NCBI GenBank assembly: GCA_030531505.1
Contig: JAUNNH010000004.1
Span: 71,584-135,583, forward strand
Length of the DNA stretch: 64,000 nt
Reading direction: 5' to 3'
Source: Eubacteriales bacterium
GTDB taxonomy: Bacteria; Bacillota; Clostridia; Oscillospirales; Oscillospiraceae
The notes beneath the pieces were generated by a model that saw only the letters and a list, made by a program, of their open reading frames with translations, had not been told where the DNA came from and did no database searches. Positions 48,484 through 64,000 of the stretch are shown here, in pieces (position 1 is the stretch's first letter; every line of letters starts with the position of its first letter). The position numbers and the translations under genes are program-made.

Positions 48484-48587
48484 TGATCTGAGGCGGTGAA
48501 AAACTATGAGAAGGCTGTTCCGGAAAAACCGCATGAAATCTGAGCATTTCCGAAGTTGTGAAAAGACGTGAAAAGCACAAGCGACAA

Positions 48588-48632: not shown

Positions 48633-48635
48633 TCC

Positions 48636-48674
48636 AACCGTCTGATTTCGTTATGAAATCAGACGGTTTTCTTT
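48636..48674 (+). terminator. terminator hairpin after the partial tRNA copy
   Basis: aaccgtctgatttc/gaaatcagacggtt followed by ttcttt. Confidence 0.7.
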
Positions 48675-48794
48675 GCTTTGAGCCGCTTTTACGCTCAAAA
48701 TATTCCAAAACAAAACACCCGTTTTTGCTTGACCCTTATTCTGACCCTTTATCCGCGAAAACGGAGTGTCAGAGATTCGCATAAAATAGACGCT

Positions 48795-49970: not shown

Positions 49971-50136
49971 AATGACCTCACTTTCCTCCGTGATGAATCC
50001 GTTCTGTCGTGATGGATCCCGGAATCATTATAGCACTTCAACACTTTAAAGCAAGAAAAACTTTTTCCCCTCTCGCTTACTTCTTCGCGGGAGAGCTTTT
50101 CATTTCGGGGCGGTCATTTTTGGCCGCCCCTGTGCA

Positions 50137-50337
50137 TTACTTCTGCGTGCTCACTTCGATCCACTGAATCAACCGATCCTTCGGAACGAGCATCCGCTTC
50201 CCAATATGCAGGGTCGGGAAATCCTCCTGCCGCATAAGGGCATAGGCATTGGAGCGCGATATGCCGAGCACGGCTGCCACCTGCTCCGCCCGCAGTGTGA
50301 TGGGCAGTTGGTCAAACGAGGTGACGTTCGTTTTCAT
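50137..50337 (-). CDS. excisionase / HTH_17 DNA-binding protein
   Basis: LRAEQVAAVLGISRSNAYALMRQEDFPTLHIGKRMLVPKDRLIQWI is present. The internal ATG is at 50337. Confidence 0.7.
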   Translation of the reverse strand: MKTNVTSFDQLPITLRAEQVAAVLGISRSNAYALMRQEDFPTLHIGKRMLVPKDRLIQWIEVSTQK

Positions 50338-51133: not shown

Positions 51134-51864
51134 AAGCTGTCCTCCCCCTCATAGCTGTAATCCCGTTCTGGCTGGGAATCGGCGTTCTTCCTGCGGTCAT
51201 TCGCTGCCCACTTCCGAATTCCAGCCTCATAGTCGTGATAGGTTTTGCTGTTGGCCTTCAGGTACACGCTCATCTCTTCTATGTACCGATCCAGATCTTC
51301 AGGATAATCTTCCTGAAGCGATTGAAGCTGCCCCTCTGAGAGAAACAAATTTCCATAGCGGCCATAGCCCTTTGCTTTCTCAGTATGGTTTCTTGATTCT
51401 GGTTTTTCTGTATTGTTTCTTGGGACCGGTTTTCCGATACCTCCTGGGCCGATTATTCGATCAGGTCTTGTCCGGTTTTTCGGTATAGCCGGGGCCGGTT
51501 TTCCGTCCTCTTCTGTCTCAGCTAGGACGACTTTCAGATAGATGCGCCGTCCACCCCGTCCGGCATAGCGTTCTCTTTCAATCAGATCGGCCTCATCCAG
51601 ATCATGCAGCGCCTGCTGAACGGCACTGCGGCCTTTTCTGAGTGTTTGCCCGATCTCCGCTTCCGAGAAATAGACATATACCCGTCCACGCTCGTCCATC
51701 CAGCCGCTTTGCAGGGACAGTTTCGCCCGATTGAGCAGCTGTGCGTAGAGCACCCGCGCGGTCATGCTCAGCTCCAGCTTCAACAGATAGTTCGGAAACG
51801 GCGCGAAGCCGGCAAGCTCCGTTTCCCTTGTGTAATAGGTCGTCTTGTAGTTTGTTGGATTCAT
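51130..51864 (-). CDS. replication initiator, RepA_N family
   Basis: FAPFPNYLLKLELSMTARVLYAQLLNRAKLSLQSGWMDERGRVYVYF matches the RepA_N pattern. Confidence 0.75.
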   Translation of the reverse strand: MNPTNYKTTYYTRETELAGFAPFPNYLLKLELSMTARVLYAQLLNRAKLSLQSGWMDERGRVYVYFSEAEIGQTLRKGRSAVQQALHDLDEADLIERERYAGRGGRRIYLKVVLAETEEDGKPAPAIPKNRTRPDRIIGPGGIGKPVPRNNTEKPESRNHTEKAKGYGRYGNLFLSEGQLQSLQEDYPEDLDRYIEEMSVYLKANSKTYHDYEAGIRKWAANDRRKNADSQPERDYSYEGEDSL

Positions 51865-52005
51865 TTTTGACGCCTCCCTTCACTAATCCCAATCTCAGGG
51901 GCCGGTTTTGCAACCACCTGGACAAAAAATATTTGTGAACTTTTTGTGAACGAGAGGCTGTATCAAAAGAGGTCTGGCTTAAAGGGTATGACAAAAAAGA
52001 CCGGC

Positions 52006-53718
52006 CTACCGCTCCACATCCGCTTTCCTGCGGCCTTGTGATCTCAGCTTTTGCGTTCCAACCACCTGCTGCTTTTCGTGGAGACGATTCAAGAGAGAAG
52101 CCTTTCCCGACAGGTCATTGTCCAGTTGCTCACTTTCCAAGGCCTGGTGAACGTGTGCTGCGGTTCCATCCAGAATCGCGTCCACATTGGCGCATACCGT
52201 CCGTAGTTCCTTTTCGTACTCTTGGAAGTACTTGCAGGTGCCGCGCTGGGCTTCCTTCCTCTGCAGCAACTGATTCCGTTCCTGCTTCAACCCTTTGAGC
52301 GACGGCACAACGGCATTCATGTTCTCCTTGATGTATTTCACTGCCGTTTCATAAAGATCCAGCTCATCGCCGTGCTGCTCCCGGAATCGTGTTTTGTTTT
52401 TTGCTTTCAGGAATTCAGCCTTCACCGCCTTGTTGCTTTTGTATTGCCCCACATAGTGGATCTGCTCATTGAGCGTCCGGATACGATCCTCGGTATTGTG
52501 GAAAGTTTGCTGGGCTTCCTGTAGCTTGCTCCGGATCTCTTCCAGCTTGGACTTTAGATCGTCACGGGTATCAAGACCGTTTTCCTGGATATAGCAGACG
52601 GTCTTTGCCATCTCTTTCAGATTGGTGAGCTTCACCTTCTGTGCGTAGGCTGCGCTCTGATGCGCCTTGACGCAACTTTGCAAATCGGTGACCAGCCGAA
52701 GATTGGAACGGATGAACAAAATTGCCTCGGGATCAGATTCGTAGTCATAGCCGGGATCGAACGTGAGGGATTTTTTGTTCTTCTCCAGTACCGCCAGTAA
52801 ATGATCTTTCTCGAAGTCGGCCCCCAGACGCCGAGCCGTGATATATCGTTCCCTGTCTGGCAGGAGATAGCTGAATCGGCCTCTGCTCTCTTTTAGCGTG
52901 ATCCCATATTTCTCTCGTAGCCCATTCTGCAATTCTTCAAAGGAACAGGCAGAAGCGGAAACATCGTTGATCGCATCCCGGAGCCTTTGCAGCTCGGTCT
53001 GGAATTTGTTAAAGCGCGGCTTCAAGCCGTCCGCGATGATCCTGGTGTTGAGCTCTTCCAGCTTTTCTTGCCCCCGCTGTTCCTTGCGGTATTCCTTCTC
53101 TGTAATCTTCACCGCTGCGGGGGACAGCAAATCTATCTGGTGCAAGCCCTCCCGCTCTGTGATCTCCATCAACCCCTTCTGCATGGCGGTCAGGAGCTCC
53201 CTCGTCTGATGGTGTTTGTATCCGGCACGGGAATCGTAGCTGCGCTCCATAAAGGGCTGCGGCTCTACGTCCAGTTTCCGCAAACTGTTCAAAACGATAT
53301 GCACATGGATATTCCCGCTTTTGTTGTTCCCGTCCATGTGGGTACACACCAACATCTGATGGCCAGCAAAAAAGCGGTTGGCAAATTCCAGACCGATGGC
53401 CTGGGCTCGTCTTCCGTCCAGGCCGCATTCCGTCACATCCCGCGGATCGAAGCTGATGATGTAATGGTGAGATTTCACATCGCCGCGATTCTGGTTTTTG
53501 TGAAAAGCCCGGTTGAGCTGTTTGCACTCCAGATCAAAGGTCAGCGCCTCGCAGCTGATCCCATCCAGATAGAATTCCGTGCGCAGCAGACGATGACCAT
53601 TTTCGTCCAGCAGCTCTTTTCCGGTTTTCTCATCATGCTGGAACATGAGATAATCCAAAACAGCACTGTAGTCGGAACTCTTACTGGACAGATGTTTTAA
53701 AATTGCCAATTCCCTCAC
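52006..53718 (-). CDS. relaxase/mobilisation nuclease (MobA/VirD2 family)
   Basis: HHYIISFDP and the histidine triad context GNIHVHIVLNS are present, followed by a long coiled-coil C-terminus. Confidence 0.85.
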   Translation of the reverse strand: MRELAILKHLSSKSSDYSAVLDYLMFQHDEKTGKELLDENGHRLLRTEFYLDGISCEALTFDLECKQLNRAFHKNQNRGDVKSHHYIISFDPRDVTECGLDGRRAQAIGLEFANRFFAGHQMLVCTHMDGNNKSGNIHVHIVLNSLRKLDVEPQPFMERSYDSRAGYKHHQTRELLTAMQKGLMEITEREGLHQIDLLSPAAVKITEKEYRKEQRGQEKLEELNTRIIADGLKPRFNKFQTELQRLRDAINDVSASACSFEELQNGLREKYGITLKESRGRFSYLLPDRERYITARRLGADFEKDHLLAVLEKNKKSLTFDPGYDYESDPEAILFIRSNLRLVTDLQSCVKAHQSAAYAQKVKLTNLKEMAKTVCYIQENGLDTRDDLKSKLEEIRSKLQEAQQTFHNTEDRIRTLNEQIHYVGQYKSNKAVKAEFLKAKNKTRFREQHGDELDLYETAVKYIKENMNAVVPSLKGLKQERNQLLQRKEAQRGTCKYFQEYEKELRTVCANVDAILDGTAAHVHQALESEQLDNDLSGKASLLNRLHEKQQVVGTQKLRSQGRRKADVER

Positions 53719-54073
53719 CTGCCAGTCTTTTCAGCACAGCCAGCATGGTCAGCACTGCATCCGTGGCTCCGCGGATCGCATCCTGCATGGCCTGAGAGTA
53801 CGTCCCGCCGGTGTTGTAGTATTTTGAAATCTGCTGCAGATCGACCAGGATGCCGTTCAGTTCCCTCACCGCCTTTTTCACTTCTTCTAGATCGGCGATA
53901 ATCTGAAACGTCGTTTCCACCTTTCCATGCACACTGCGATCACGGAGATAATCTGTGACCGTGGTGTTTTGCCTTTTTGTCAATTCTGTTATCTTCGCAT
54001 ATTCCGCCTCCGAGAAACGGATAGAGATCTGCTTACCCTTTCTCAGCGATTCATCTTTCTTTGGCCTTGCCAT
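53681..54073 (-). CDS. mobC: relaxosome accessory protein MobC
   Basis: It has the RHH-like ISIRFSEAEYAKI and a conserved LNGILVDLQQISKYYN block, and overlaps the relaxase start. Confidence 0.8.
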   Translation of the reverse strand: MARPKKDESLRKGKQISIRFSEAEYAKITELTKRQNTTVTDYLRDRSVHGKVETTFQIIADLEEVKKAVRELNGILVDLQQISKYYNTGGTYSQAMQDAIRGATDAVLTMLAVLKRLAGEGIGNFKTSVQ

Positions 54074-54625
54074 GATTTTATTTCCTCCTCACGTTTTGCT
54101 GTTTTTAGAATTTTGGCTTTGACGAGAATCGTCACCGGGGCAGCTTTCCCGCAAAAGGGAAAGGCTGCATCCGCTGCGACTACGCCAGTAGGAGCCACAG
54201 AGAAAAACGCCGTTTTTCTCAAACCGAGGGATTGGGGAATCGAAATCCCCAACAAGATGGCCAGACGGCAAAAACCGAAAACGGAGTTTTTGCATGTCGC
54301 AGGCGTATCTTGCGTTATAACAGTTGATCTCCTCACGTACCCCATTCTTCGGCCCGTCAATTGCAACCATGTTGGAGCAGATTTCTCAAAAACGTTTATC
54401 CCCCTCTACTTAACCCAAACTCAGAGGCCACTTTTGCAAGTACCTCATACGAAAAAACATGAAAAAATCGCAGCCGATGAGAAAACTCCCATTGGCTACG
54501 AAGAGCTAATCAAGATTTCATTCTTTTCACAAAATGAATAAGATGTTCGTAAAGTTGAATTTTTGTTGTGTTGTTTTGCTCGATATGATAAAATAGGATT
54601 AGTTTACAAACGTGAGGTGTTTCTT

Positions 54626-54838
54626 ATGCCTGTCAGTTACAAAAAACTCTGGAAGCTCTTGATCGACAAAGATCTGAAAAAGACCGATCTGCGCACAGTG
54701 GCTGGACTCAGCACGGGCACACTGGCGAAGCTCGGTAAAAATGAGGGCGTCTCAACAGACGTCCTTGTCCGCATCTGCCGCGCGCTTAATTGCGACATCG
54801 GCGACATTATGGAAGTGCTGCCGGAGGACAGGTCGTAA
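54626..54838 (+). CDS. XRE-family HTH protein
   Basis: MPVSYKKLWKLLIDKDLKKTDLRTVAGLSTGTLAKLGKNEGVSTDVLVRICRALNCDIGDIME is a canonical Cro/C1 HTH. Confidence 0.85.
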   Translation: MPVSYKKLWKLLIDKDLKKTDLRTVAGLSTGTLAKLGKNEGVSTDVLVRICRALNCDIGDIMEVLPEDRS

Positions 54839-54844: not shown

Positions 54845-55567
54845 ATGGATTATGGGCAGAGGAAATCTGTGATGACTGAAATTGAAAACCTATTCGATGA
54901 AAATCTCTTGCTTCCCAATTTAAAAGGTGCCGCATATTTTATCCTTTTGTATGAGCACGTTGAAGATAGCGTGATCAGCGCAGTAAAGGAATGCTATTCT
55001 ATCCCGTGTGTACTGGATGGAAAGATGTATTCCAGTATCGATGATGACTATATCAAAGCATTAAATGAGAAAATTGCCGCCGGTGAAAAGTCTTCCTTCG
55101 CCCCATTCGAGCTGCAGCTAAGGGAGGCAGAACGGTTACGGGAACGTTATCTTGATGAAGTTATCCGCCCCAAAAAAGAATCCGATAAAGAAAAGGACGG
55201 GAAACGCCTTAGAGGATCCCTTAATTGGATGCAGGAAAACGGCGTCCTTTCTGAGCAAGATGTCTCCCGACTTTTCCAGATACGCAAAAGAAGAAATGAT
55301 ATTGTTCATGAACTGCTGGAAGTACTGTCCGAGGGACTATCTGAAAGTGATGCCGGGATGATCGCAGACTTGCTGGCCATCAGCCATAAAATCAACACCT
55401 GGCATTTTCGTGAAATAGATATGCCCGCCTTAGGAATCGAATTGCCTGAGGGCACAACATCAGATGATGTGGTAGGTGGAGATGATGCCATTTTGTCCGG
55501 ACTATTCCGAATACTGTTTTTAAATGATGGCGCGCTTTTCAAAGAAGAAATCGAGAAACTAAAATGA
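54845..55567 (+). CDS. putative HEPN-domain protein (R-N-x3-H motif)
   Basis: LFQIRKRRNDIVHELLE contains RNxxxH in a predicted helical context. It lies 7 nt downstream of the XRE gene. The alternative start is 54875. Confidence 0.5.
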   Translation: MDYGQRKSVMTEIENLFDENLLLPNLKGAAYFILLYEHVEDSVISAVKECYSIPCVLDGKMYSSIDDDYIKALNEKIAAGEKSSFAPFELQLREAERLRERYLDEVIRPKKESDKEKDGKRLRGSLNWMQENGVLSEQDVSRLFQIRKRRNDIVHELLEVLSEGLSESDAGMIADLLAISHKINTWHFREIDMPALGIELPEGTTSDDVVGGDDAILSGLFRILFLNDGALFKEEIEKLK

Positions 55568-55651: not shown

Positions 55652-57742
55652 ATGCCTAACGACAAGTTTTCTATAGTCGGAACCAACATCGCTGAGAAGG
55701 CCACGATGATCTGGAACGTGGCGGATATGCTGCGCGGGCCGTTCAAGCCCCATGAGTACGGCCTTGTGATCCTGCCCATGACGGTGGTCAAGCGCTTTCA
55801 CGACTGCCTGCTGCCCACCCACGACGCGGTGTTGGCAGAGTACGAGAAGGTCAAGCACTTCGCCGTGAAGGACGGCTTTCTCACCAAGGCAAGCGGCTAT
55901 CAGTTTTACAACATCAGCAAGTTCACCTTTGACTCCCTGCTCACCGACCCGGAGAACATCGAGGCAAACTTCCGGGACTATCTGGCGGGCTTCTCCGCCA
56001 ACGTGCAGGACGTGTTGGCGAAGTTTGATTTCGACACCGTCATCCGCCGCATGGTGGAGAGCAACACCCTGTACCTGGTGATCCGGGAGTTCAATTCCCC
56101 CAAGGGCTACCTGGGCCCGGACCGGATCACAGCGGTGGACTGCGGCTATATCTTCGAGGATCTGGTGCGCCGCTTTTCCGAGTCCTTCGGTGAGGAAGCG
56201 GGAGCCCACTTCACCAGCCGGGACGTGGTGTATCTCATGACCGACCTGCTGCTGAGCGACGCGGATCTGAGCCGCGGCGGCAACGTGACTGTGTACGACA
56301 TGGCCATGGGCACCAGCCAGATGCTCTCCTGCATGGAGGAGCGCATCCATGAGCTGAACGCGGAGATCGGCGTCACCTGCTTCGGGCAGGAGTTCAACCC
56401 CTCCACCTTCGCCATTGCCAAGGCGGACATGATGATCCGCGGCGGCGATCCCAACAACATGCGTTTCGGCGACACCCTGTCCGAGGATCAGTTCTCCGGC
56501 TACACCTTCCAGTACATCATCTCCAACCCGCCCTTCGGCATCGACTGGAAGCGGGAGCAGAAGGCCGTGGAGGCCGAGAACGCCAAGGGTGAGCTGGGCC
56601 GCTTTGCGCCCGGTCTGCCCAAGATCTCCGATGGGCAGCAGCTCTTTGTGCTCAACGGTCTGGCCAAGCTTGCCCACGGCGGCAAGATGGCGATCATTCA
56701 AAACGGCTCGCCCCTGTTCTCCGGCGACGCGGGCAGCGGCCCCAGCGAGATCCGCCGCTACATCCTGGAGAACGACTGGCTGGACGCCATTGTGCAGATG
56801 AGCACCGACATGTTCATGAACACCGGCATCAGTACCTATATCTGGGTGCTGAACAAGGACAAGCCCGCCCACCGCATGGGCAAGGTGCAGCTCATCGACG
56901 CCTCCCACTGCTGTGAGGCGCGGCGCAAGTCCATCGGCACCAAGCGCAACGACGTCACCGACTTCTGCCGGGAACTGATCGTCCGGGCCTACGGGGAATT
57001 CAAGGACGACGCCATCTACGGCGACAAGGCGGGCGTCTACTGCCAGAGCAAGATCTTTGACAACGAGACCTTCGGCTACCGCAAGATCACCGTGGAGCGG
57101 CCGCTGCGACAAGCTGCTTTTATCAACGATGAAACACTCGATCTGACGAAATCCTTCTTGCGGCAACACCAGGTCGATGTTGATTCCAACATCATTGATT
57201 TGGGCGGCCAGATAACTGAGCGGGAAGTAACTATGCCACGTACCACGGGTGAAATTGGGGCAGAGCTCAATTTACGTCGGTATTATCAGATCCTTCTTTC
57301 CTTGAAGCGGGAGGAACCATACACAAGCATTTCCGAAGTTGAGAAACTCTTTAATGCGAGACCCTTGAATCCCGGCACGAAGTTGATGCGATTCAGTTCT
57401 TTTAACAGCATATCTTTGCCGGAACTTCTGCTCAAAACAGACCCGCGTGGTGAGATTGTCGCAAAGCGCGGCAAGCCGGTGGCCGACGCCGATCTTCGCG
57501 ACACGGAAAATGTCCCCCTGACGGAGGACGTGGAGAGCTATTTCAAGCGTGAGGTGCTGCCTTACGCGCCCGACGCCTGGATCGACGAGAAGAAGACCAA
57601 GGTCGGCTATGAGATCCCCATGACCCGTTACTTCTACGAGTACCAGGCCCCGGAGAAGACCGAGGACATCATGGCGCGCATCACCGCCCTGGAGCAGGAG
57701 ATATCCGCGAGCCTGCAGGCGCTGTTTCACAAGGAGGGCTGA
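55652..57742 (+). CDS. hsdM: Type I restriction-modification system, methyltransferase subunit
   Basis: The HsdM_N pattern IWNVADMLRG and the catalytic NPPFG (IISNPPFGIDW) are present. Confidence 0.95.
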   Translation: MPNDKFSIVGTNIAEKATMIWNVADMLRGPFKPHEYGLVILPMTVVKRFHDCLLPTHDAVLAEYEKVKHFAVKDGFLTKASGYQFYNISKFTFDSLLTDPENIEANFRDYLAGFSANVQDVLAKFDFDTVIRRMVESNTLYLVIREFNSPKGYLGPDRITAVDCGYIFEDLVRRFSESFGEEAGAHFTSRDVVYLMTDLLLSDADLSRGGNVTVYDMAMGTSQMLSCMEERIHELNAEIGVTCFGQEFNPSTFAIAKADMMIRGGDPNNMRFGDTLSEDQFSGYTFQYIISNPPFGIDWKREQKAVEAENAKGELGRFAPGLPKISDGQQLFVLNGLAKLAHGGKMAIIQNGSPLFSGDAGSGPSEIRRYILENDWLDAIVQMSTDMFMNTGISTYIWVLNKDKPAHRMGKVQLIDASHCCEARRKSIGTKRNDVTDFCRELIVRAYGEFKDDAIYGDKAGVYCQSKIFDNETFGYRKITVERPLRQAAFINDETLDLTKSFLRQHQVDVDSNIIDLGGQITEREVTMPRTTGEIGAELNLRRYYQILLSLKREEPYTSISEVEKLFNARPLNPGTKLMRFSSFNSISLPELLLKTDPRGEIVAKRGKPVADADLRDTENVPLTEDVESYFKREVLPYAPDAWIDEKKTKVGYEIPMTRYFYEYQAPEKTEDIMARITALEQEISASLQALFHKEG

Positions 57743-57745: not shown

Positions 57746-58663
57746 ATGAAATCTGGAGATTTAAAACGAAAATCAGGTATGGTTCGTGTGTTGGGCGGCT
57801 TTAGTGAACAGCAGAACATAAAAAAACACCATCCTATTCTGCAAGTAGATGATATTGATGACGGAAGTCGAATCCAAATAAGTAATGAATTATATAAACT
57901 GTTAGGTATAGTTTTTGGAAATAGAGCTGGGTACTTTTTCGGTCCGAATTTCAGCTATAATTTGACTGACATTCTTTGCAAAGATATGCTTAATGATGTC
58001 TTCTGTGAGCGAAATGCCATTGCACCGGGCTATCAATATGATTGGCAAAAAATGTTTGAAAAAATCCACGACACAATTATGCAGGCAACATATAATGAGG
58101 TGTTTGATTTAATACAGTATGTTTGTTTATGGGTTGAATCAAGACTCTTTAGAGAAAAGGGCGAAATGTTTAAGTCTTTAAATGCGATCTTTCAGAAAGA
58201 GAACATTGGCTATCGTTTCGTGGCTGGGAGAATAACGCCTATTACTGATAATCAAGAAATGTTATCAATAGAGGAGGCCTGTCGGTCTCCAATTGAGGGA
58301 GGCCGTAAACAGATTCAGAAGGCGGTTGCTTTCCTCTCTGACAGACAAAACCCGGATTACAAAAACTGCATTAAGGAAAGCATCAGCGCTGTTGAATCTA
58401 TTTGTCAAGTAATTGTTGGTGATGAAAAGGCTACATTAGGCGACGCCCTAAAGCAACTAGAAAAGAGAGGTCTTTCTATTCATCCTTGCTTAAAGACTGC
58501 GTTTTCAAAACTCTATGGATATACTACCGATCAAGGTGGGATTCGCCATGCAGAAGGAATGTTTGAAAGTAACGTTACCTTTGAAGAGGCTAAGTTCATG
58601 CTTGTTAGCTGCAGCGCATTTATTAACTATTTGATTGCCGAATATGGCAAAAGAGGTAACTGA
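57746..58663 (+). CDS. AbiJ-NTD4-like / HEPN-like protein inserted between hsdM and hsdS
   Basis: There are 3-nt gaps on both sides. The N-terminus FSEQQNIKKHHPILQVDDIDDGSRIQISNELYKLL and the C-terminus LYGYTTDQGGIRHAEG...EEAKFMLVSCSAFINYL match a pattern I recall from AbiJ N-terminal-domain-4 proteins. The gene is AT-rich. Confidence 0.5.
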   Translation: MKSGDLKRKSGMVRVLGGFSEQQNIKKHHPILQVDDIDDGSRIQISNELYKLLGIVFGNRAGYFFGPNFSYNLTDILCKDMLNDVFCERNAIAPGYQYDWQKMFEKIHDTIMQATYNEVFDLIQYVCLWVESRLFREKGEMFKSLNAIFQKENIGYRFVAGRITPITDNQEMLSIEEACRSPIEGGRKQIQKAVAFLSDRQNPDYKNCIKESISAVESICQVIVGDEKATLGDALKQLEKRGLSIHPCLKTAFSKLYGYTTDQGGIRHAEGMFESNVTFEEAKFMLVSCSAFINYLIAEYGKRGN

Positions 58664-58665: not shown

Positions 58666-59970
58666 ATGGCGCGAGCGATGAAGGACTCCGGCATTGAGTG
58701 GATCGGAGAGATTCCGGAGGGGTGGGGAACAAACACAGCCTTTCAGATTTTCACACAAGTCAAAAACAAAAATGAAGGACTGAAAGAGCAGAACCTTCTT
58801 TCTCTCAGCTATGGCAAGATCAAGAGGAAAAGCATTGAGACAGTAGGCGGACTTCTCCCTGAAAACTTTGACGGGTATAACATCATTGAAGCCGATGATA
58901 TAGTGCTCAGGCTTACGGATTTGCAGAACGATCAGAAAAGCCTTCGCGTTGGCATTTCTCCGGAAAGAGGTATCGTCACCTCGGCGTACTTAACTCTACG
59001 GAATCGCAGCACATCCCTTCCCGAATACCTGTACTACTATCTGCATGCTTTCGATATTTCAAAAGGTTTTTACGGTATGGGCGCGGGGGTTCGGCAAGGG
59101 TTGAACTGGGATGGCTTGAAATGGCTAAAGATTCTGACTCCGCCAGTGCCAGAACAAGAAAAGATCGTGAGTTTTCTTGATGCCGAGTGCGCCCGGATCG
59201 ACGCGGTGATCGAGCAGACCCGCGCGTCCATTGAGGAATACAAGAAGCTGAAGCAGTCCGTCATCACCCAGGCCGTCACCAAAGGCATCCGCCCCGGGCG
59301 GAAAATGAAAGACAGCGGGGTGGAATGGATTGGGGTAGTACCAGAAGAGTGGGCGATTATTCGACTTCAACATATCGCTGCTGCCATAGAAAGTGGAACG
59401 AGCGTAAATGCTGGACAAGCAGCTGCTTCTGTTGGAGAACTCGGCGTATTAAAGACGAGTTGTGTGAGCAGATTTGTTTTTCTTCCAGAAGAAAATAAAA
59501 GCGTGAACAAGGATGAAGAAAACAGGGTTTCCTGTCCTGTGAGGAAGAACACAATTATTGTAAGCAGAATGAATACACCTGAGCTTGTTGGCGCCTGTGG
59601 ATATGTCAGTCAAGATTATGATAATTTGTTTTTGCCAGACAGATTATGGCAAGTTCATTTCAAGCCAAATACCAATGTAAAATACATTTATTATTGGCTC
59701 AGAAGCGCATGTGTTAGAAATTACTATTCTTCTCTCGCAGTTGGAACGAGCAGTTCTATGCAGAACATATCGCAGGATCAGTTCTATCATGCGTGCTGTC
59801 CATTTCCAGCAGCAGAGGAACAAAAAGAAATCGTTGCATTTCTCGATGAAAAGTGCAATTCAATTGACTTCCTGATTGATATGAAATCAAAGTTCTTAGC
59901 TGAACTGGAATCCTACAAAAAGTCCCTGATCTTTGAATATGTGACTGGGAAAAAGGAGGTTCCGAAATAA
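58666..59970 (+). CDS. hsdS: Type I R-M specificity subunit
   Basis: It has two TRDs separated by the conserved repeats PPVPEQEKIVSFLDAECARID and PFPAAEEQKEIVAFLDEKCNSID, and a duplicated MKDSG(I/V)EWIG motif. Confidence 0.92.
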   Translation: MARAMKDSGIEWIGEIPEGWGTNTAFQIFTQVKNKNEGLKEQNLLSLSYGKIKRKSIETVGGLLPENFDGYNIIEADDIVLRLTDLQNDQKSLRVGISPERGIVTSAYLTLRNRSTSLPEYLYYYLHAFDISKGFYGMGAGVRQGLNWDGLKWLKILTPPVPEQEKIVSFLDAECARIDAVIEQTRASIEEYKKLKQSVITQAVTKGIRPGRKMKDSGVEWIGVVPEEWAIIRLQHIAAAIESGTSVNAGQAAASVGELGVLKTSCVSRFVFLPEENKSVNKDEENRVSCPVRKNTIIVSRMNTPELVGACGYVSQDYDNLFLPDRLWQVHFKPNTNVKYIYYWLRSACVRNYYSSLAVGTSSSMQNISQDQFYHACCPFPAAEEQKEIVAFLDEKCNSIDFLIDMKSKFLAELESYKKSLIFEYVTGKKEVPK

Positions 59971-60039
59971 TCAGCAGCAAATACTATGAGGGTGTCCTTT
60001 TTGTTATTTTTTTCATACGTACATTGATAGGAGGCCAAG

Positions 60040-61515
60040 ATGCAAATTACGAGCATTCCGATTGTGGATTATTTACGCTATTGTATGAACGCAGCTCGGA
60101 GCAAGGGCTTTTTTTGGGTAATGGTCCTGCTCTCAAGAGAACGTGATAATCCAAGAGGATTTGACGATATCGCACGTTACTGGGATTCTTACGGTGATCT
60201 GACAGGTGAGAAAATACTCTTTGTCATGTCGGCAAGAAACGATCCGCAGACCAATTATAACCATCATCTTGAACACTCGGATTGTCGCTACAAGCGGCTT
60301 GGCAATACAAGCTTTATGATTGTAAACGAAACACATCCCCCTGTCTTGAGATGGAATTATCCTAATGAAACTCAACTAAAGCAACTGGAAGAGCAAGCAA
60401 TATACAATACGTCATCACAGGTATCGTCATTGCTTAAAATGTATAGACTTTCCGAAGCGGACGTTCCGGCTATTCTGCTGATTCCTACGGGAGGCGAGGA
60501 TCCAAACCCAATCGTTCTTCGTCACGAAATGGATATCTATGGTTGCATAAAATCATTCATTGAATATATTGAGCCTTCTTTTAGGGCTTTTGACGACTGT
60601 CAAGCCCAACTATATGCAAAGCGACGCGAAAAGGAAAAACTTGATAAAGAGTTAAGGCAGTGCGTGGTTAGTAAAGGTGTAAGAAAATATATAGAAGCCA
60701 AAGACTATATCAATCAGGCCATGCTGGAAATGGATTCGGATACTCGTAATGCTGTAAAGACTGCTATAGAGACAAAAGACTTGAGTATTTGCGCCAAGTT
60801 TTCTCAGCCGTTGCGTGGGATCTTGAACCGAATTATTGACATTCAAGTGCATAGCCCGAAGATTATGCAAGGCATTGAGAATGCTCCGCTCATTGTCAAA
60901 AAAATACAACAGCTTGATAAGGAGAAGAAGCAACTTGAGAAGCAAATCAACGAAACAGGAAAGCAGCTTAATCGACTGCGTATTGATACATATAAATCTG
61001 CAAGAGCGTTTAGCCAACAGAGAACGTATATGGAGGAGAAAACAATGTCTCAAGTAAACAACAAGCATTTTAAAATAGCATTCACTTTTTCCGGCAAGTA
61101 TAGAGGCAGTATTGTTGAACCGGTATGTAACGAGCTACTCAGTCGTGGCTCTTCAAAAGACGATATCTTTTTTGATGAATGGCATTCTGCCCTCATCAAC
61201 GGAATCAATGGAAGTGAGAAGCTAAAGTCTATTTATTTCCAGCAAAGCGACTGTGTTGTTGTTCTTCTATCCCCGGATTATAAAGAGAGAAACTGGACTG
61301 GAAATATTGAATGGCGCGCTGTCAAAGAGTTAATCAACACAGGAAAGGGAAACCGGATTTGTCTATTGGGAATTGATGGAGTAGATGTTGCGAATATAGA
61401 TGGTTTATACAAATATCAAGATTTATATAAGCGGATCGACAATATGATGCCATGCGAAATCGCCGATTTTCTTGAAGAGTACTGTAGAGAGAATAACTTA
61501 TACCTAAATAAATAA
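60040..61515 (+). CDS. TIR-domain protein with unknown N-terminal domain and coiled coil
   Basis: The C-terminal approx. 150 aa read KIAFTFSGKYR...IFFDEW...SDCVVVLLSPDYKERNWTGNIEWRAV, fitting the bacterial TIR/ThsB-like pattern (beta-A FxxS, catalytic Glu after W). The gene is strongly AT-rich. Confidence 0.62.
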   Translation: MQITSIPIVDYLRYCMNAARSKGFFWVMVLLSRERDNPRGFDDIARYWDSYGDLTGEKILFVMSARNDPQTNYNHHLEHSDCRYKRLGNTSFMIVNETHPPVLRWNYPNETQLKQLEEQAIYNTSSQVSSLLKMYRLSEADVPAILLIPTGGEDPNPIVLRHEMDIYGCIKSFIEYIEPSFRAFDDCQAQLYAKRREKEKLDKELRQCVVSKGVRKYIEAKDYINQAMLEMDSDTRNAVKTAIETKDLSICAKFSQPLRGILNRIIDIQVHSPKIMQGIENAPLIVKKIQQLDKEKKQLEKQINETGKQLNRLRIDTYKSARAFSQQRTYMEEKTMSQVNNKHFKIAFTFSGKYRGSIVEPVCNELLSRGSSKDDIFFDEWHSALINGINGSEKLKSIYFQQSDCVVVLLSPDYKERNWTGNIEWRAVKELINTGKGNRICLLGIDGVDVANIDGLYKYQDLYKRIDNMMPCEIADFLEEYCRENNLYLNK

Positions 61516-61600: not shown

Positions 61601-61662
61601 CTCTTGGCTCGCCCCTCGCGGCAGCGTGGGGAGAGCTGGCGCGCCAGCGCCTGAGAGGGGCA
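61601..61662 (+). repeat. left copy of 62-nt direct repeat flanking the DUF559 gene
   Basis: ctcttggctcgcccctcgcgGcagcgtggggagagctggcgcgccagcgcctgagaggggca has one mismatch to 62150-62211. It contains the palindrome gctggcgcgccagc. Confidence 0.85.
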
Positions 61663-61794
61663 ATACAGCTTTGGACGGGCGGCCCCTCTCCGTCACTTCG
61701 TGACACCTCTCCCCGACGCGGGGAGAGGCAAGAGAATGGCGCGGGGAGAGGCAAGCGTTTGGGGCGTGTCAAAAAAGAAGGAGCATCCAAGGCT

Positions 61795-62145
61795 ATGAAA
61801 AATAATGATCTCATGCTTGCCCGTGCGAGGGAGCTTCGGCGGGAAATGACGCCGCACGAGAGGAAGCTCTGGTATATGTTCCTTCGAAAGCACCCTGTAA
61901 AGTTCTATAAACAGAAAATCATCGAACGGTACATCGTGGACTTTTACTGTGCGCCCGCAAAGCTTGTCATTGAGCTGGACGGTTCGCAGCATTATGAAGA
62001 AGCCGGAATAGAAAGCGACAGAATGCGGGACGAACGGCTGAACGAGCTTGGCTTTAAAGTGCTGCGTTTCAGCAACCGGGAAGTCGACCGCGAATTCGAC
62101 GCAGTCTGTGACCTGATAGATCGAACCGTGAAAGAACGTATGTAA
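61795..62145 (+). CDS. DUF559 (Vsr-like endonuclease fold) protein
   Basis: ARELRREMTPHERKLWYMFLRKHPVKFYKQKIIERYIVDFYCAPAKLVIELDGSQH...FKVLRFSNREV is the canonical DUF559 sequence. Confidence 0.85.
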   Translation: MKNNDLMLARARELRREMTPHERKLWYMFLRKHPVKFYKQKIIERYIVDFYCAPAKLVIELDGSQHYEEAGIESDRMRDERLNELGFKVLRFSNREVDREFDAVCDLIDRTVKERM

Positions 62146-62149: not shown

Positions 62150-62211
62150 CTCTTGGCTCGCCCCTCGCGACAGCGTGGGGAGAGCTGGCGCGCCAGCGCC
62201 TGAGAGGGGCA
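62150..62211 (+). repeat. right copy of 62-nt direct repeat flanking the DUF559 gene
   Basis: See 61601-61662. Further shared blocks are gcggcccctctccgtcac and gcgcggggagaggcaag. Confidence 0.85.
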
Positions 62212-62255
62212 GTGCGGCGTTGAACATGCGGCCCCTCTCCGTCACCCTCCTCCGT

Positions 62256-62303
62256 CCCCCCCCCCCCGCACCACCCGGCCCCCCACCCCCCCCCCGGGGG
62301 GGG
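62256..62303. repeat. homopolymer cluster C11 ... C6 ... C10G9
   Basis: The runs are read directly at 62256-62266, 62278-62283, 62285-62294 and 62295-62303. Extra G7 runs are at 62319-62325 and 62368-62374. Confidence 0.9.
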
Positions 62304-62449
62304 GCCTCACAAAACGCCCGGGGGGGAGATGCAAGAATATAGCGCGGGGAGAGGCAAGAGAGCGACGCGGGGGGGAGCATAACTCCGGAAATGGCAAGAG
62401 AGCAATACAGAAAGAGCTAAGAAACAGAAACCAATGAGGAGGCGCCACC

Positions 62450-64000
62450 ATGCCGATCACCGACACCACCGAAAAACGCTTTGAAATGGATATTGCTGAC
62501 TTCCTTCTGTCGCCTGCGGGAGGGTATACAGGAAACCATGACGCCTACGATCCCAAGCTGGGGCTGTTCCCGGAGACGCTGGTGCGTTTCGTGCAGAAGA
62601 CCCAGCCGAAGGAGTGGGCGCGCTTCGTCATGCAGAACAAGACGGAGCCGGAGCGGAAGTTCTGCCTCGCCTTCAACACCGCCTGTGATATGGACGGGCT
62701 GCTGCAGGTTCTGCGCCACGGCTTCAAGCACCGGGGCGTGAGCTTTCGCGTCTGCTATTTCCGGCCGGAGTCCAGCCTGAACCAGACAGCAGCGCAGCAG
62801 TACGCGGCCAATGAGATCACCTGCAACCGCCAGTGGTTCTATTCCGCCGACACCCACAACAGTGTGGACATGGTGCTGGCCGTCAACGGCATCCCGGTGT
62901 TCGCATTCGAGCTGAAAAACCAGTACACCGGTCAGACGGTGGACAACGCCAAGCGCCAGTGGATGTACGACCGCGACCCACGGGAGATCTGCTTCCAGTT
63001 CAACAAGCGCATTCTGGGCTACTTCTGCGTGGATCAGCTGGAGGTCTGGATGACCACGAAGCTGGCTGGGAAGGACACCTTTTTCCTGCCCTTCAATCAG
63101 GGTTCCAACGGTGCGGGCAACGACGGTGGAAAGGGAAATCCCGCCAATCCCGACGGCTATCCCACCGCCTACCTGTGGGAGCAGGTCTTCCAGAAGGACA
63201 GCATGATGGACATTCTGCAAAAGTTCATCCATTTGCAGATCGAAGAAGAAAAGAAACGTTTGCCGGATGGCTCGGAGCAGACAATCATTAAGAAAAAGCT
63301 GATCTTCCCGCGCTACCATCAGCTGGACGTGGTGCGCAAACTCCTGGCCGACGTGCGCGCAAACGGCGCGGGGCACAACTATCTGATTCAGCACTCCGCC
63401 GGTTCCGGCAAGTCCAACTCCATTGCCTGGACGGCCTACCGTCTGGCCTCTCTGCATGACGATGAAAACCGGCCGGTGTTCTCCAGCGTCATCGTGGTCA
63501 CCGATCGCACCGTGCTGGACGCCCAGCTGCAGGAGACCATCTCCGGCTTTGACCACACCCTCGGCGCGGTGGAGACCATCGGCGAGGACAAGACCTCCAA
63601 GGACCTCCGGGACGCTATTAACAACGGCATCCGCATCATCGTCACCACGCTGCAGAAGTTCCCGGTGATCTATCAGGAGGTGGATAAGGTCGCGGGCCGA
63701 AACTACGCCGTGATCGTGGACGAGGCCCATTCCTCCCAGACCGGTTCCTCGGCGCTGAAGCTCAAGGCAGCGCTGGCCGACACAGAAGAAGCCCTGCGCG
63801 AATACGCAGAGCTGGAGGGGAAAGAGGAAGAGGAGCTCGACCTGAACAACAAGCTGCTGCAGGAGATGCTGGTGCAGGGCAAGCACGCGAACCTCTCCTT
63901 CTTCGCCTTTACGGCCACGCCCAAGGCTCAGACGCTGGAGCTTTTCGGCACCGAGTGGGAGGACGGCAGCTTTCATCCCTTCCATGTGTACAGCATGCGG
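62450..64000 (+). CDS. hsdR: Type I R-M restriction subunit (3' end beyond window)
   Basis: The ATG at 62450 has a GAGGAGG SD. It is not in the ORF track because no stop occurs before the window end. My own translation gives the nuclease-domain motif FELKN and the helicase motifs HSAGSGKSNS (Walker A) and VIVDEAHSSQ (DEAH). Confidence 0.93.
   Translation, partial: MPITDTTEKRFEMDIADFLLSPAGGYTGNHDAYDPKLGLFPETLVRFVQKTQPKEWARFVMQNKTEPERKFCLAFNTACDMDGLLQVLRHGFKHRGVSFRVCYFRPESSLNQTAAQQYAANEITCNRQWFYSADTHNSVDMVLAVNGIPVFAFELKNQYTGQTVDNAKRQWMYDRDPREICFQFNKRILGYFCVDQLEVWMTTKLAGKDTFFLPFNQGSNGAGNDGGKGNPANPDGYPTAYLWEQVFQKDSMMDILQKFIHLQIEEEKKRLPDGSEQTIIKKKLIFPRYHQLDVVRKLLADVRANGAGHNYLIQHSAGSGKSNSIAWTAYRLASLHDDENRPVFSSVIVVTDRTVLDAQLQETISGFDHTLGAVETIGEDKTSKDLRDAINNGIRIIVTTLQKFPVIYQEVDKVAGRNYAVIVDEAHSSQTGSSALKLKAALADTEEALREYAELEGKEEEELDLNNKLLQEMLVQGKHANLSFFAFTATPKAQTLELFGTEWEDGSFHPFHVYSMR

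What the first reader, a model, noticed from the sequence alone, without database searches (positions are those of the whole stretch)
60040..61515. TIR-domain protein with an unrecognised N-terminal domain, in the PrrC position between hsdS and hsdR
- The 491-aa ORF has an N-terminal region of about 185 aa that I cannot assign. It shows alternating beta/alpha-like segments such as EKILFVMSARND and VPAILLIPTGG.
- A Lys/Glu/Gln-rich coiled coil follows (about aa 190-330).
- The C-terminal domain fits the bacterial TIR pattern: KIAFTFSG, IFFDEW, VVVLLSPDYKERNW, NIEW with a candidate catalytic Glu.
- A strong internal SD, GGAGGAG (61032-61038), lies 6 nt before an in-frame ATG at 61045, just upstream of the TIR domain. 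A free TIR module might therefore also be made.
- Bacterial TIR proteins are NADase or signal-generating defence effectors (Thoeris and others). A TIR fused to this N-terminal module and embedded in a Type I R-M locus is not an arrangement I recognise.
Basis: partly seen in the sequence, partly recalled or inferred. Interest (0 to 1): 0.8.

Follow-up and report, generated by a model that had tools for sequence, protein, structure and literature searches.

The report
Thioredoxin-like sensor fused to TIR effector
The gene between hsdS and hsdR encodes a real TIR-domain protein whose unassigned N-terminus is a redox-dead thioredoxin-like domain shared by about 270 protein clusters with interchangeable toxic domains, so it is most likely a self-contained anti-phage suicide switch inserted in a restriction locus.

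Summary

- **C-terminus:** it is a TIR domain. The isolated domain scores 29.3 bits against Pfam TIR_2 (cut-off 28), and Foldseek's best matches are TIR structures. Glu424 is invariant at the catalytic position.
- **N-terminus (aa 1-165):** it models with high confidence (pLDDT 90.9) as a thioredoxin-like fold. The CxxC site is replaced by R-E-R-D, and it has no Pfam or PADLOC model.
- **Wider family:** this N-domain heads about 273 protein clusters. Their C-termini swap between TIR, SEFIR, a PNP_UDP_1 phosphorylase-superfamily domain, PD-(D/E)XK, CHAT, GT4 and metallophosphatase. That pattern fits a sensor module with exchangeable effectors.
- **Genomic context:** most homologues are solitary genes in defence hot spots or mobile elements. 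Only two lineages lie in Type I R-M loci, so PrrC-like dependence on restriction is not supported.
- **Internal start:** the internal SD plus ATG (Met336) is conserved, but it travels with the TIR cassette into unrelated architectures.

Verdict: a new variant of a known kind, namely a single-chain TIR abortive-infection candidate. Nothing has been tested biochemically. Interest is moderate.

The parts
60029..60034 (+). Shine-Dalgarno (AGGAGG) of the gene, 5 nt before the ATG
   Evidence: Read from the sequence. Predicted anti-SD duplex is -11.1 kcal/mol.
60040..61515 (+). Complete CDS of 491 aa. It is 100% identical to an NCBI MAG protein, Q4E38_03785 (Eubacteriales bacterium), annotated as hypothetical.
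60040..60534 (+). N-terminal thioredoxin-like domain, aa 1-165. Topology is b1 2-5, a1 8-22, b2 26-31, a2 38-55, b3 59-64, an insert at 65-109, a3 110-134, b4 144-149 and b5 158-161. R33-E34-R35-D36 occupies the CxxC position. Invariant P143 sits at the cis-Pro position. Family-invariant residues are R33, W48, E139 and P143.
   Evidence: AlphaFold2 on a 43-sequence alignment gives pLDDT 90.9 and pTM 0.86. Nearly all of the top 50 Foldseek PDB matches are thioredoxin-fold proteins, best PDILT b' domain 4nwy at E 0.02 and prob 0.99. Thioredoxins also head the viral library. Pfam Thioredoxin_6 hits 3 of 43 members weakly.
60535..61032 (+). Helical, coiled-coil-like middle module, aa 166-331. It is K/E/Q/R-rich, with long helices 166-207 and 283-331 and a conserved C251...P257-L-R-G-x-L-N motif.
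61032..61047 (+). Internal SD-like GGAGGAG (61032-61038) plus in-frame ATG (61045-61047, Met336), in the disordered linker 7 codons before the TIR domain.
   Evidence: A comparable SD plus start lies 6-8 codons before the TIR in 6 of 8 family loci and in unrelated TIR fusions.
61066..61512 (+). C-terminal TIR domain, aa 343-491.
   Evidence: Pfam TIR_2 scores 29.3 bits on the isolated domain (cut-off 28), and 20 of 20 homologous modules match. Foldseek's top hits are BtpA, SPARTA TIR-APAZ, SEFIR and MyD88 TIR. The best PDB sequence hits are AbTir 7uwg and 7uxr.
61309..61311 (+). GAA codon of Glu424, the invariant candidate catalytic glutamate (N-I-E-W). W419 is 5 residues upstream.
   Evidence: Invariant in alignments A1 and A3. 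The motif SPDYKEKNWTG aligns with AbTir STDFIKKDWTN just before the AbTir catalytic Glu (the identity of the AbTir residue is from my own knowledge).
55652..57742 (+). hsdM (context)
   Evidence: Pfam N6_Mtase 176 bits and HsdM_N 75 bits.
57746..58663 (+). AbiJ-like gene embedded between hsdM and hsdS (context).
   Evidence: Pfam AbiJ_NTD4 73.6 bits; PADLOC PDC-S32 298 bits.
58666..59970 (+). hsdS (context). It ends 69 nt before the target ATG, and no terminator-like site lies between them.
   Evidence: Pfam Methylase_S, two stretches; terminator scan.
61759..62145 (+). DUF559 endonuclease-like gene, a secondary insertion between the target and hsdR, flanked by 92%-identical GC-rich direct repeats.
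   Evidence: Pfam DUF559 113 bits. Repeats at 61601-61696 and 62150-62245. The gene is absent in the related locus L035, where hsdR starts 18 nt after the homologue.
62450..64000 (+). hsdR (context); runs off the window end.
   Evidence: Pfam HSDR_N, ResIII and SWI2_SNF2; translation.

Best explanation
The gene most likely encodes an autonomous, single-polypeptide anti-phage (abortive-infection type) protein with three modules.

1. **Sensor.** A redox-inactive thioredoxin-like N-terminal domain. Its conserved residues are R33/E34/D36 at the former CxxC site, plus W48, E139 and P143 at the cis-Pro loop. Inferred: these form the site that binds the trigger, which would be a phage protein, peptide or small molecule.
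2. **Transducer.** A roughly 165-residue helical, coiled-coil module. Inferred: it holds the protein in an inactive state and drives dimerisation or higher-order assembly once the trigger is bound.
3. **Effector.** A C-terminal TIR domain. Inferred from established TIR enzymology: it becomes an NAD+ glycohydrolase when TIR domains self-associate, with Glu424 as the catalytic residue. NAD+ depletion then stops the infected cell.

Its position between hsdS and hsdR most likely reflects insertion of a mobile, low-GC defence cassette into a Type I R-M operon, a known landing site for accessory defence genes. The operon is itself carried on an integrative mobilizable element. The gene is probably co-transcribed with hsdMS but does not depend on them mechanistically.

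Shown here: the fold assignments, the invariant residues, the effector swapping and the genomic contexts. Inferred: sensing, oligomerisation, NADase activity and defence.
For: **TIR identity**
- Pfam TIR_2 matches the isolated domain at the gathering threshold, and 20 of 20 related modules match.
- Foldseek's top hits are all TIR or SEFIR structures.
- The profile's best PDB sequence hits are the bacterial NADases AbTir and 7uxr, aligned through the W-containing catalytic motif.
- Glu424 is invariant.

**N-domain fold**
- The AlphaFold2 model is high confidence, pLDDT 90.9.
- Thioredoxin-fold structures make up nearly all of the top 50 PDB matches and head the viral list.
- Thioredoxin_6 is the only recurring Pfam hit.

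**Sensor-plus-effector logic**
- The N-domain profile finds 273 clusters at E <= 1e-3 among 1.84 billion representatives, N-terminal in nearly all listed hits.
- The C-termini of 102 members include TIR_2 (25), TIR (5), PNP_UDP_1 (4), GT4-conflict (2), PDDEXK_9 (2), CHAT (2), SEFIR, SMEK_N, EAD11 and ThsB_TIR. P0027 carries Metallophos instead.
- These are the usual toxic effector domains of bacterial conflict systems.

**Autonomy and defence context of homologues**
- Next to nSTAND3 and RhuM, or Mrr on a Mob/recombinase element.
- In a DUF3427-PLD helicase / NUDIX / HNH / SLFN-helicase island.
- Beside TIR-NB-ARC-TPR and OLD-like genes, or AbiJ.
- In a prophage between the replication and lysis modules.
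- Five loci share one hot spot downstream of a tRNA-U5-methyltransferase gene.
- No conserved partner gene appears.

**Horizontal origin**
- GC is 39-43% for the gene, against about 61% for hsdM and hsdR.
- The locus lies beside an integrase, RepA_N, a relaxase and a NikA-like gene.
Against: - No biochemical or phage data exist for any member of the family.
- The TIR part of the full-length model has low confidence (pLDDT 46-85), and the Foldseek E-values are weak (4e-3 for TIR, 2e-2 for thioredoxin).
- W419 is 5 residues, not 4, from Glu424, so the catalytic geometry is assumed rather than shown.
- Three of about 13 loci examined, representing two independent lineages, place the gene directly beside Type I R-M genes (the window plus L035, and L033/L034). 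A functional link to restriction therefore cannot be excluded.
- A role for the N-domain as an enzyme or a partner-docking module, rather than a sensor, is equally compatible with the conservation pattern.
Confidence: 0.6

Rival explanations
1. PrrC-like guard of the restriction enzyme. The protein is held inactive by contact with the HsdMSR complex. It is released as a TIR NADase when a phage anti-restriction protein (of the Ocr, ArdA or Stp type) disables the Type I enzyme. A looser version is that it senses anti-restriction proteins directly and therefore benefits from riding with R-M genes.
For: - The gene lies exactly between hsdS and hsdR, 69 nt after hsdS, with no terminator-like site between them.
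- A 79%-identical homologue lies 18 nt upstream of a 92%-identical hsdR.
- An independent 43%-identical homologue sits about 57 nt downstream of hsdS in an unrelated Type I system whose hsdM is only 22% identical.
Against: - At least 9 other distinct contexts of full-length homologues contain no R-M genes.
- The same N-domain family with other effectors is widespread.
- R-M genes are the commonest neighbours of any defence gene, so 2 lineages out of about 11 is what defence-island clustering alone would give.
- There is no similarity to the PrrC ATPase or nuclease domains.
Confidence: 0.12
2. Signal-generating TIR of the Thoeris ThsB type. The TIR makes a cyclic ADP-ribose isomer or a related nucleotide, which activates a separate effector encoded elsewhere, rather than killing by NAD+ depletion.
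For: - The closest solved sequence relatives, AbTir and 7uxr, belong to the bacterial TIR class that I recall as producing cADPR isomers (the product chemistry is from my own knowledge).
- One N-domain family member hits ThsB_TIR weakly.
Against: - No ThsA-like gene (SIR2-SLOG, Macro or TM) or any other conserved partner is adjacent in any context examined.
- In paralogous architectures the TIR position is taken by directly toxic domains such as a nuclease, a protease, a PNP_UDP_1 phosphorylase-superfamily domain and a phosphoesterase. That argues it is the terminal effector.
Confidence: 0.12
3. Two-isoform system. The conserved internal SD plus ATG (Met336) produces a free TIR polypeptide of about 156 aa alongside the full-length protein. 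The ratio or co-assembly of the two forms regulates activity.
For: - An in-frame start with SD pairing of -9 to -12 kcal/mol lies 6-8 codons before the TIR in 6 of 8 family loci, and it is usually the strongest in-frame internal site.
- The Gly codon in the leader is GGA in every case seen, against 42% GGA overall in these genes.
- The site falls in a disordered linker (pLDDT < 50 over 331-344).
Against: - The same leader (K-G-E-K-x-M-K-I-x-V-P-H-F-K-I-G) accompanies this TIR cassette in unrelated fusions, including proteins over 1000 aa (L008, L010) and proteins where the TIR motif starts at residue 278 or 566 of the open frame (L015, L014). It may therefore be a relic RBS from cassette shuffling or a conserved peptide.
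- The sequences are related, so the codon counts are not independent.
- Two family members lack it (L024, L026).
- A free, unregulated TIR NADase would be expected to be toxic.
Confidence: 0.2
4. Not an immune gene. It is a Tcp-like (BtpA, TcpC, AbTir type) coiled-coil TIR protein that acts on a eukaryotic host, or a housekeeping NAD-metabolising protein.
For: - The coiled-coil-then-TIR layout resembles the Tcp proteins (from my own knowledge).
- BtpA is the top structural hit.
- The source is a Eubacteriales metagenome-assembled genome.
Against: - Homologues lie consistently in defence islands, prophage accessory-gene positions and mobile elements.
- The effector swaps with nucleases and proteases.
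- The gene lies in an R-M operon.
- No signal peptide or secretion-system neighbour was seen, by inspection of the N-terminal sequence only.
Confidence: 0.04

Closest known systems
Bacterial coiled-coil TIR NADases (AbTir, BtTir, and the BtpA/TcpB group)
   Same: Both have a helical or coiled-coil region N-terminal to a TIR_2-type domain. These are the best sequence hits (7uwg and 7uxr, E 0.15-0.2) and the best structural hits (4lzp and 4c7m) in the PDB. The S-x-D-[FY]-x-x-K-[DN]-W-T motif lies before the catalytic Glu.
   Different: Sequence similarity is not statistically significant. The spacing from W to Glu is one residue longer. Those proteins lack the thioredoxin-like N-domain and are not known from R-M loci.
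Single-chain sensor-effector defence proteins with swappable effectors (for example Avs/STAND, SAVED-, STING- or pAgo-linked TIR effectors such as SPARTA and TIR-STING)
   Same: The logic is the same: one conserved sensor or regulator module, a TIR that is presumed to act as an NADase on oligomerisation, and the same pool of alternative effectors (nuclease, CHAT protease, PNP_UDP_1 phosphorylase-superfamily domain, GT4).
   Different: There is no NTPase, SAVED, STING or Argonaute module. The conserved module is a thioredoxin-like domain plus a helical region, which neither Pfam nor PADLOC v2 models.
PrrC/EcoprrI and other genes embedded in Type I R-M loci (TgvAB in Vibrio cholerae VPI-2; 'guilt-by-embedding' candidates)
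   Same: The position between hsdS and hsdR matches PrrC. The locus also carries a second embedded candidate, the AbiJ-like PDC-S32 gene. The phenomenon is documented in PMC11411939 and bioRxiv 10.1101/2024.01.29.577857.
   Different: There is no homology to PrrC or TgvAB. Linkage to R-M is not conserved across the family, whereas the preprint describes PrrC as almost exclusively embedded in Type I RM systems.
Redox-inactive thioredoxin-like domains (PDI b/b' domains, ERp27, Wind, UAS)
   Same: These are the best structural matches of the N-domain (4nwy, 4f9z, 1ovn, 2dlx). Like them, it lacks CxxC. Weak Thioredoxin_6 hits appear in 3 of 43 family members.
   Different: Identity is only 7-14%. 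There is a roughly 45-residue insert between b3 and a3. The family has its own invariant R, W, E and P set. The setting is cytoplasmic, bacterial and fused to an effector.
PADLOC candidate PDC-S66
   Same: It is the only PADLOC model that touches the protein (aa 244-421). It also hits 14 of 102 N-domain family members, best E 1.8e-13.
   Different: The window protein scores only 15.3 bits (E 0.0026). The model has 282 positions, and only its positions 47-220 align, to aa 244-421; the thioredoxin-like domain is not covered by the match. It is itself only an untested candidate.

Membership tests
TIR domain (Pfam TIR_2, PF13676) | Profile match at or above the curated gathering score | tested here: met
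   The isolated domain aa 339-491 scores 29.3 bits against a cut-off of 28. All 20 related modules match, best 3e-9. In the full-length protein the score is 26.7, just below the cut-off.
TIR domain (Pfam TIR_2, PF13676) | Flavodoxin-like alpha/beta fold superposable on solved TIR domains | tested here: inconclusive
   The Foldseek top hits are BtpA, SPARTA TIR-APAZ, SEFIR, MyD88 and TIR-STING with prob 0.96-1.0. However, E is only 4e-3 to 1e-1 and the TIR part of the model has pLDDT 46-85.
TIR domain (Pfam TIR_2, PF13676) | Conserved catalytic glutamate after the conserved Trp (W-x-x-x-E region) | tested here: met
   Glu424 is invariant in A1 (21 sequences) and A3 (20 sequences), and W419 is invariant. 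The region aligns with AbTir ...KKDWTN just before the AbTir Glu. The spacing is W+5 rather than W+4.
TIR domain (Pfam TIR_2, PF13676) | NAD+ glycohydrolase or cyclase activity | not testable with these tools
   This needs an enzyme assay.
Thioredoxin-like fold superfamily (N-domain) | b-a-b-a-b-a-b-b-a topology with a conserved (cis-)Pro before the penultimate strand | tested here: met
   The AlphaFold2 secondary-structure order matches. P143 is invariant and immediately precedes strand 144-149. Thioredoxin-fold proteins dominate the Foldseek lists in two libraries.
Thioredoxin-like fold superfamily (N-domain) | CxxC (or CxxS) redox motif at the start of helix a2 | tested here: not met
   The position holds R33-E34-R35-D36, with family consensus A-R-E-A-D. 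The domain is therefore thioredoxin-like in fold only, not an oxidoreductase.
Thioredoxin-like fold superfamily (N-domain) | Significant sequence-profile match to a thioredoxin family | tested here: not met
   There are no hits for the window protein. Only 3 of 43 relatives hit Thioredoxin_6, best E 3e-4. There is no PDB sequence hit.
PrrC-type R-M-linked guard | Gene located between hsdS and hsdR of a Type I R-M operon | tested here: met
PrrC-type R-M-linked guard | Linkage to Type I R-M conserved across the family | tested here: not met
   Only the window plus L035 (one lineage) and L033/L034 (a second lineage) are beside hsd genes. At least 9 other contexts are not.
PrrC-type R-M-linked guard | ABC-ATPase-like N-domain plus anticodon-nuclease C-domain | tested here: not met
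   There are no such Pfam, NCBIfam or PADLOC hits.
PrrC-type R-M-linked guard | Physical masking by the restriction complex and activation by anti-restriction factors | not testable with these tools
   This needs pull-downs and phage genetics.
Thoeris (ThsA + ThsB) | TIR (ThsB) gene adjacent to a ThsA effector gene (SIR2/SLOG or Macro/TM) | tested here: not met
   No such neighbour is present in the window or in any homologue locus.
PADLOC PDC-S66 candidate | Profile match | tested here: inconclusive
   15.3 bits, E 0.0026, covering aa 244-421 only.

The most novel reading that the evidence does not exclude
The thioredoxin-like N-domain plus helical module may define a previously undescribed, widespread class of single-chain bacterial immune sensors. 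It would be a Trx-like sensor with at least ten interchangeable effector types. Members recurrently lodged inside Type I R-M operons may act as a second line that fires when restriction is neutralised. The conserved internal ribosome-binding site may give a free TIR isoform that tunes activation.
Probability: 0.15. Interest if true: 0.8.

Novelty: new variant of a known kind. Interest (0 to 1): 0.5.

Why it matters
If the protein defends against phage, it adds a new sensor module to the catalogue of bacterial immune receptors. That module is a redox-dead thioredoxin-like domain conserved across about 270 protein clusters, and no current annotation library models it. It would offer one handle for studying how a single sensor is wired to TIR, nuclease, protease, PNP_UDP_1 phosphorylase-superfamily and glycosyltransferase effectors.

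It would also give a clean test case for two open questions. The first is whether defence genes embedded in Type I R-M operons are functionally coupled to restriction or are only co-located. The second is whether ribosome-binding sites retained inside fused effector cassettes are used.

If it turns out to be only another TIR NADase abortive-infection gene, the practical gain is better annotation of a family currently labelled 'hypothetical' or named only by its effector domain.

Tried and rejected
- **PDB sequence searches.** The full-length profile and the N-domain profile gave no meaningful hits. Only the TIR-only profile reached AbTir and 7uxr, and weakly.
- **N-domain profile against the 5.8-billion-protein index.** This returned only 3 proteins because of the word-index limit and added nothing.
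- **Viral contig scans.** The second, with the narrow alignment, found none.
- **tblastn against phage and plasmid records.** There were no phage matches. Plasmids gave only three distant TIR-domain matches.
- **GTDB species-representative genomes.** Only one full-length relative was found. The metagenome scan also gave only one. Context statistics therefore rest on about 13 loci.
- **Literature searches.** Queries combining thioredoxin or thioredoxin-like with TIR and phage defence returned nothing. The Aravind-group papers that define GT4-conflict and the EAD domains do not mention a thioredoxin-like N-module. The library searched is incomplete.
- **Promoter and terminator scan.** It showed no convincing independent promoter or terminator for the gene, and terminator-like counts equal the shuffled expectation.
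- **Glu430 as the catalytic residue.** I rejected it because it is replaced by Ala in part of the wider TIR set, whereas Glu424 is invariant.
- **The middle region as a plain coiled coil.** I rejected this because of the conserved C251/P257 motif.
- **A profile of the middle region.** It detected that region in only 23 of the 146 N-domain representatives, many at odd positions, so I draw no conclusion about how widely it is conserved.
Full report
**1. The observation**

The ORF at 60040-61515 (+) is present as described. It encodes 491 aa from an ATG start, with AGGAGG 5 nt upstream.

The internal GGAGGAG (61032-61038) and the in-frame ATG at 61045 (Met336) are also there. That site is the only in-frame internal start in the gene with predicted anti-SD pairing at or below -7 kcal/mol. 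It scores -9.3, against -11.1 for the true start.

The middle region (aa 190-335) is 38% K/E/Q/R, against about 20% in the flanking domains. It shows heptad periodicity and is modelled as long helices.

The surrounding genes are:
- hsdM, 55652-57742
- an AbiJ-like gene, 57746-58663
- hsdS, 58666-59970
- the target gene
- a DUF559 gene, 61759-62145
- hsdR, from 62450 to beyond the window end

The gene therefore occupies the position that prrC has in EcoprrI.

**2. The C-terminal domain is a TIR domain**

- In the full-length protein, Pfam TIR_2 scores 26.7 bits, just under the 28-bit cut-off.
- The isolated domain (aa 339-491) scores 29.3 bits. All 20 related modules from other proteins match TIR_2, best E 3e-9.
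- A full-length AlphaFold2 model (mean pLDDT 74, but only 46-85 across the TIR part) has TIR or SEFIR structures as its best PDB matches. These are BtpA 4lzp/4c7m, SPARTA TIR-APAZ 8i87/8spo, a prokaryotic SEFIR 5y8f, MyD88 and TIR-STING. Probabilities are near 1, but E-values are weak at 4e-3 and above.
- A profile of the TIR module finds the bacterial TIR proteins 7uwg (AbTir) and 7uxr as its best PDB sequences, at E 0.15-0.2, which is not significant. It aligns ...LLSPDYKEKNWTG with ...VLSTDFIKKDWTN. From my own knowledge, the AbTir catalytic glutamate follows that motif.
- Glu424 (N-I-E-W) is invariant in 21 full-length homologues and in 20 modules from other architectures. Glu430 is not invariant. 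The Trp-to-Glu spacing is one residue longer than the usual W-x-x-x-E.

I consider the TIR assignment secure. Catalytic competence is plausible but untested.

**3. The N-terminal domain can now be assigned**

It has no match in Pfam, NCBIfam or PADLOC, and none in PDB sequences.

A profile of aa 1-190 was searched against 1.84 billion representative proteins. It found 273 clusters at E <= 1e-3, and 139 at E <= 1e-10. The domain is at the N-terminus in nearly all listed hits.

With a 43-sequence alignment of these, AlphaFold2 gives a confident model with pLDDT 90.9 and pTM 0.86. The order of elements is b(2-5) a(8-22) b(26-31) a(38-55) b(59-64), an insert, a(110-134) b(144-149) b(158-161) a(166-). 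This is the thioredoxin topology.

Foldseek supports this:
- Nearly all of the top 50 PDB matches are thioredoxin-fold proteins. They are headed by redox-inactive domains: PDILT b' 4nwy at E 0.02 and prob 0.99, then ERp27, Wind and UAS.
- Thioredoxins also head the viral library.
- The only Pfam family that recurs among the 43 relatives is Thioredoxin_6, in 3 members, best E 3e-4.

The family-invariant residues are R33, W48, E139 and P143. R33-E34-R35-D36 lies in the loop where thioredoxins carry CxxC. P143 immediately precedes the strand that follows the cis-proline in thioredoxins. So the conserved residues sit at the canonical active-site face, but the redox cysteines are absent. I infer a binding or sensing site. 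I could not inspect the coordinates to confirm that these residues cluster in space.

**4. The N-domain is a constant module with exchangeable effectors**

Pfam scans of 102 family members of at least 300 aa show these C-terminal domains:
- TIR_2 (25) and TIR (5)
- PNP_UDP_1 (4)
- GT4-conflict (2), PDDEXK_9 (2) and CHAT (2)
- SEFIR, SMEK_N, EAD11 and ThsB_TIR (one each)

P0027 shares aa 1-373 with the query but ends in a metallophosphatase. P0026 joins the N-domain to the TIR without the long helical region.

PADLOC recognises only the effector parts. Public names for family members refer only to the effector, for example 'glycosyltransferase family 4 protein' or 'TIR domain-containing protein'.

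Conversely, this particular TIR module is found at 50-64% identity in many other architectures. It occurs N-terminal in proteins of about 287 aa, C-terminal in proteins of 840 aa and in open frames over 1000 aa, and after leucine-rich repeats. This two-way shuffling is the hallmark of sensor-effector proteins of bacterial conflict systems.

**5. Genomic context**

The gene has 39-43% GC, while hsdM and hsdR have about 61%. The whole R-M locus lies next to a tyrosine integrase, an IstB-like ATPase, RepA_N, a MobA/VirD2 relaxase and a NikA-like protein. It is therefore cargo of an integrative mobilizable element.

Full-length homologues (33-79% identity) are mostly solitary genes in defence-type surroundings:
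- after nSTAND3 and RhuM genes
- next to Mrr on a Mob/serine-recombinase element
- on another Mob/ParB/recombinase element
- beside a DUF3427-PLD helicase, NUDIX, HNH, SLFN-helicase and MazG-like cluster
- between TIR-NB-ARC-TPR and OLD-like genes
- next to an AbiJ gene
- for the metallophosphatase variant, between the replication and lysis modules of a prophage

Five loci share one hot spot downstream of a TRAM/tRNA-U5-methyltransferase gene. No partner gene is conserved.

Type I R-M neighbours occur in two lineages:
- **The window's own lineage.** A 79%-identical homologue lies 18 nt upstream of a 92%-identical hsdR, without the DUF559 insertion.
- **An independent case.** A 43%-identical homologue, whose gene call was truncated, starts about 57 nt after hsdS. 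That system is unrelated, with hsdM only 22% identical.

Embedding of accessory defence genes in Type I R-M operons is documented. TgvAB is one case (PMC11411939). [quoted passage not shown] By contrast, this family is mostly outside R-M loci.

**6. The internal start**

An in-frame ATG or TTG with SD pairing of -9 to -12 kcal/mol lies 6-8 codons before the H-F-K-I start of the TIR in 6 of 8 family loci first examined. It is usually the strongest in-frame internal site.

The same leader (AAAGGAGAAAAAGGTATG, encoding K-G-E-K-G-M) also precedes this TIR cassette in unrelated fusions. In those, the TIR motif begins at residue 278, 566 or beyond 1000 of the open frame. The Gly codon is always GGA, against 42% GGA overall in these genes, but the sequences are related and so not independent.

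The feature is real and conserved. It belongs to the mobile TIR cassette rather than to this gene. A retained ribosome-binding site from cassette shuffling, a conserved linker peptide and a functional internal start cannot be separated without experiments.

**7. Most likely mechanism (confidence 0.6)**

I propose a self-contained abortive-infection protein:
- The thioredoxin-like domain senses a phage-derived trigger.
- The helical module converts this into assembly.
- The clustered TIR domains hydrolyse NAD+ through Glu424.

Shown here: the folds, the invariant residues, the effector swapping, the absence of a conserved partner, and the defence or mobile-element contexts. Inferred: sensing, oligomerisation, NADase activity and defence.

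The rivals are:
- a PrrC-like guard of restriction (0.12)
- a ThsB-like signal generator (0.12)
- regulation by a free TIR isoform, which is a sub-hypothesis compatible with the main model (0.2)
- a Tcp-like host-directed protein (0.04)

**8. Novelty and score**

TIR effectors, single-chain sensor-effector proteins and R-M-embedded defence genes are all known kinds. What is new is the constant module: a redox-dead thioredoxin-like domain plus helical region. It is unmodelled in Pfam and PADLOC, I found no description of it in the searchable literature, and it heads about 270 clusters with at least ten effector types.

I rate it a new variant of a known kind, with interest 0.5.

**Caveats**
- The Foldseek E-values are weak for both domains.
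- The TIR part of the full-length model is low confidence.
- Context statistics rest on about 13 loci, mostly from metagenomes.
- The literature library is incomplete.

Noticed in passing
window 61601-61696 and 62150-62245 (also 61720-61755 / 62323-62358; C-rich tract with runs of up to 10 C, 62249-62295): The DUF559 endonuclease-like gene (61759-62145) is bracketed by 92%-identical, GC-rich 96-nt direct repeats, and these occur nowhere else in the window. A related locus (L035) has hsdR directly after the TIR-gene homologue, with no DUF559 and no repeats. DUF559 plus its repeats therefore looks like a small secondary insertion, possibly a mobile or homing cassette.
   Followed up: partly
window 57746-58663 (+): A 305-aa AbiJ_NTD4 protein lies between hsdM and hsdS (Pfam 73.6 bits; PADLOC candidate PDC-S32, 298 bits). 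It is a second embedded defence candidate in the same Type I R-M operon. A homologue locus of the target (L007:10200-11498) also has an AbiJ (NTD3+NTD4) gene as its neighbour.
   Followed up: partly
window 54845-55567 (+): A 240-aa ORF just upstream of hsdM has a sub-threshold RiboL-PSP-HEPN match (19.5 bits against a cut-off of 28.4). It may be a third accessory toxin or defence gene in the locus.
   Followed up: no
window 47518-54838: The R-M locus is cargo of an integrative mobilizable element. Its genes are a NYN-domain protein (47518-48207, -), a tyrosine integrase (48795-49970, -), an IstB-like ATPase (50312-51133, -), RepA_N (51130-51864, -), a MobA/VirD2 relaxase (52006-53718, -), a NikA-like protein (53681-54073, -) and a Cro/C1 HTH protein (54563-54838, +).
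   Followed up: partly
L001:391-2037, L007:5929-7839, L013:4754-6406, L029:5001-6521, L031:1-443: In several Lachnospiraceae-type contigs the homologues sit in a variable region just downstream of a TRAM/tRNA-(uracil-5)-methyltransferase gene. The cargo differs between contigs: nSTAND3 plus RhuM, PIN plus TIR-NB-ARC-TPR plus an OLD-like gene, AbiJ, or serine recombinases. This looks like a defence-gene integration hot spot.
   Followed up: partly
L008:8001-8414, L010:7911-8429, L014, L015: The same TIR cassette, including its K-G-E-K-x-M-K-I-x-V-P leader with an SD-like AAAGGAGAAAAAGG and an ATG, forms the C-terminus of very large uncharacterised proteins. In these the TIR motif starts after residue 1000 of the open frame. 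This points to frequent cassette shuffling of this TIR subfamily among gut and rumen Firmicutes.
   Followed up: partly
L033:6808-8263 (and L034): The public gene call for homologue P0021 (420 aa) is truncated at the N-terminus. The open frame continues upstream to an ATG about 57 nt after the hsdS stop and encodes the full thioredoxin-like domain (MEITNLSIVDYIKFC...).
   Followed up: yes
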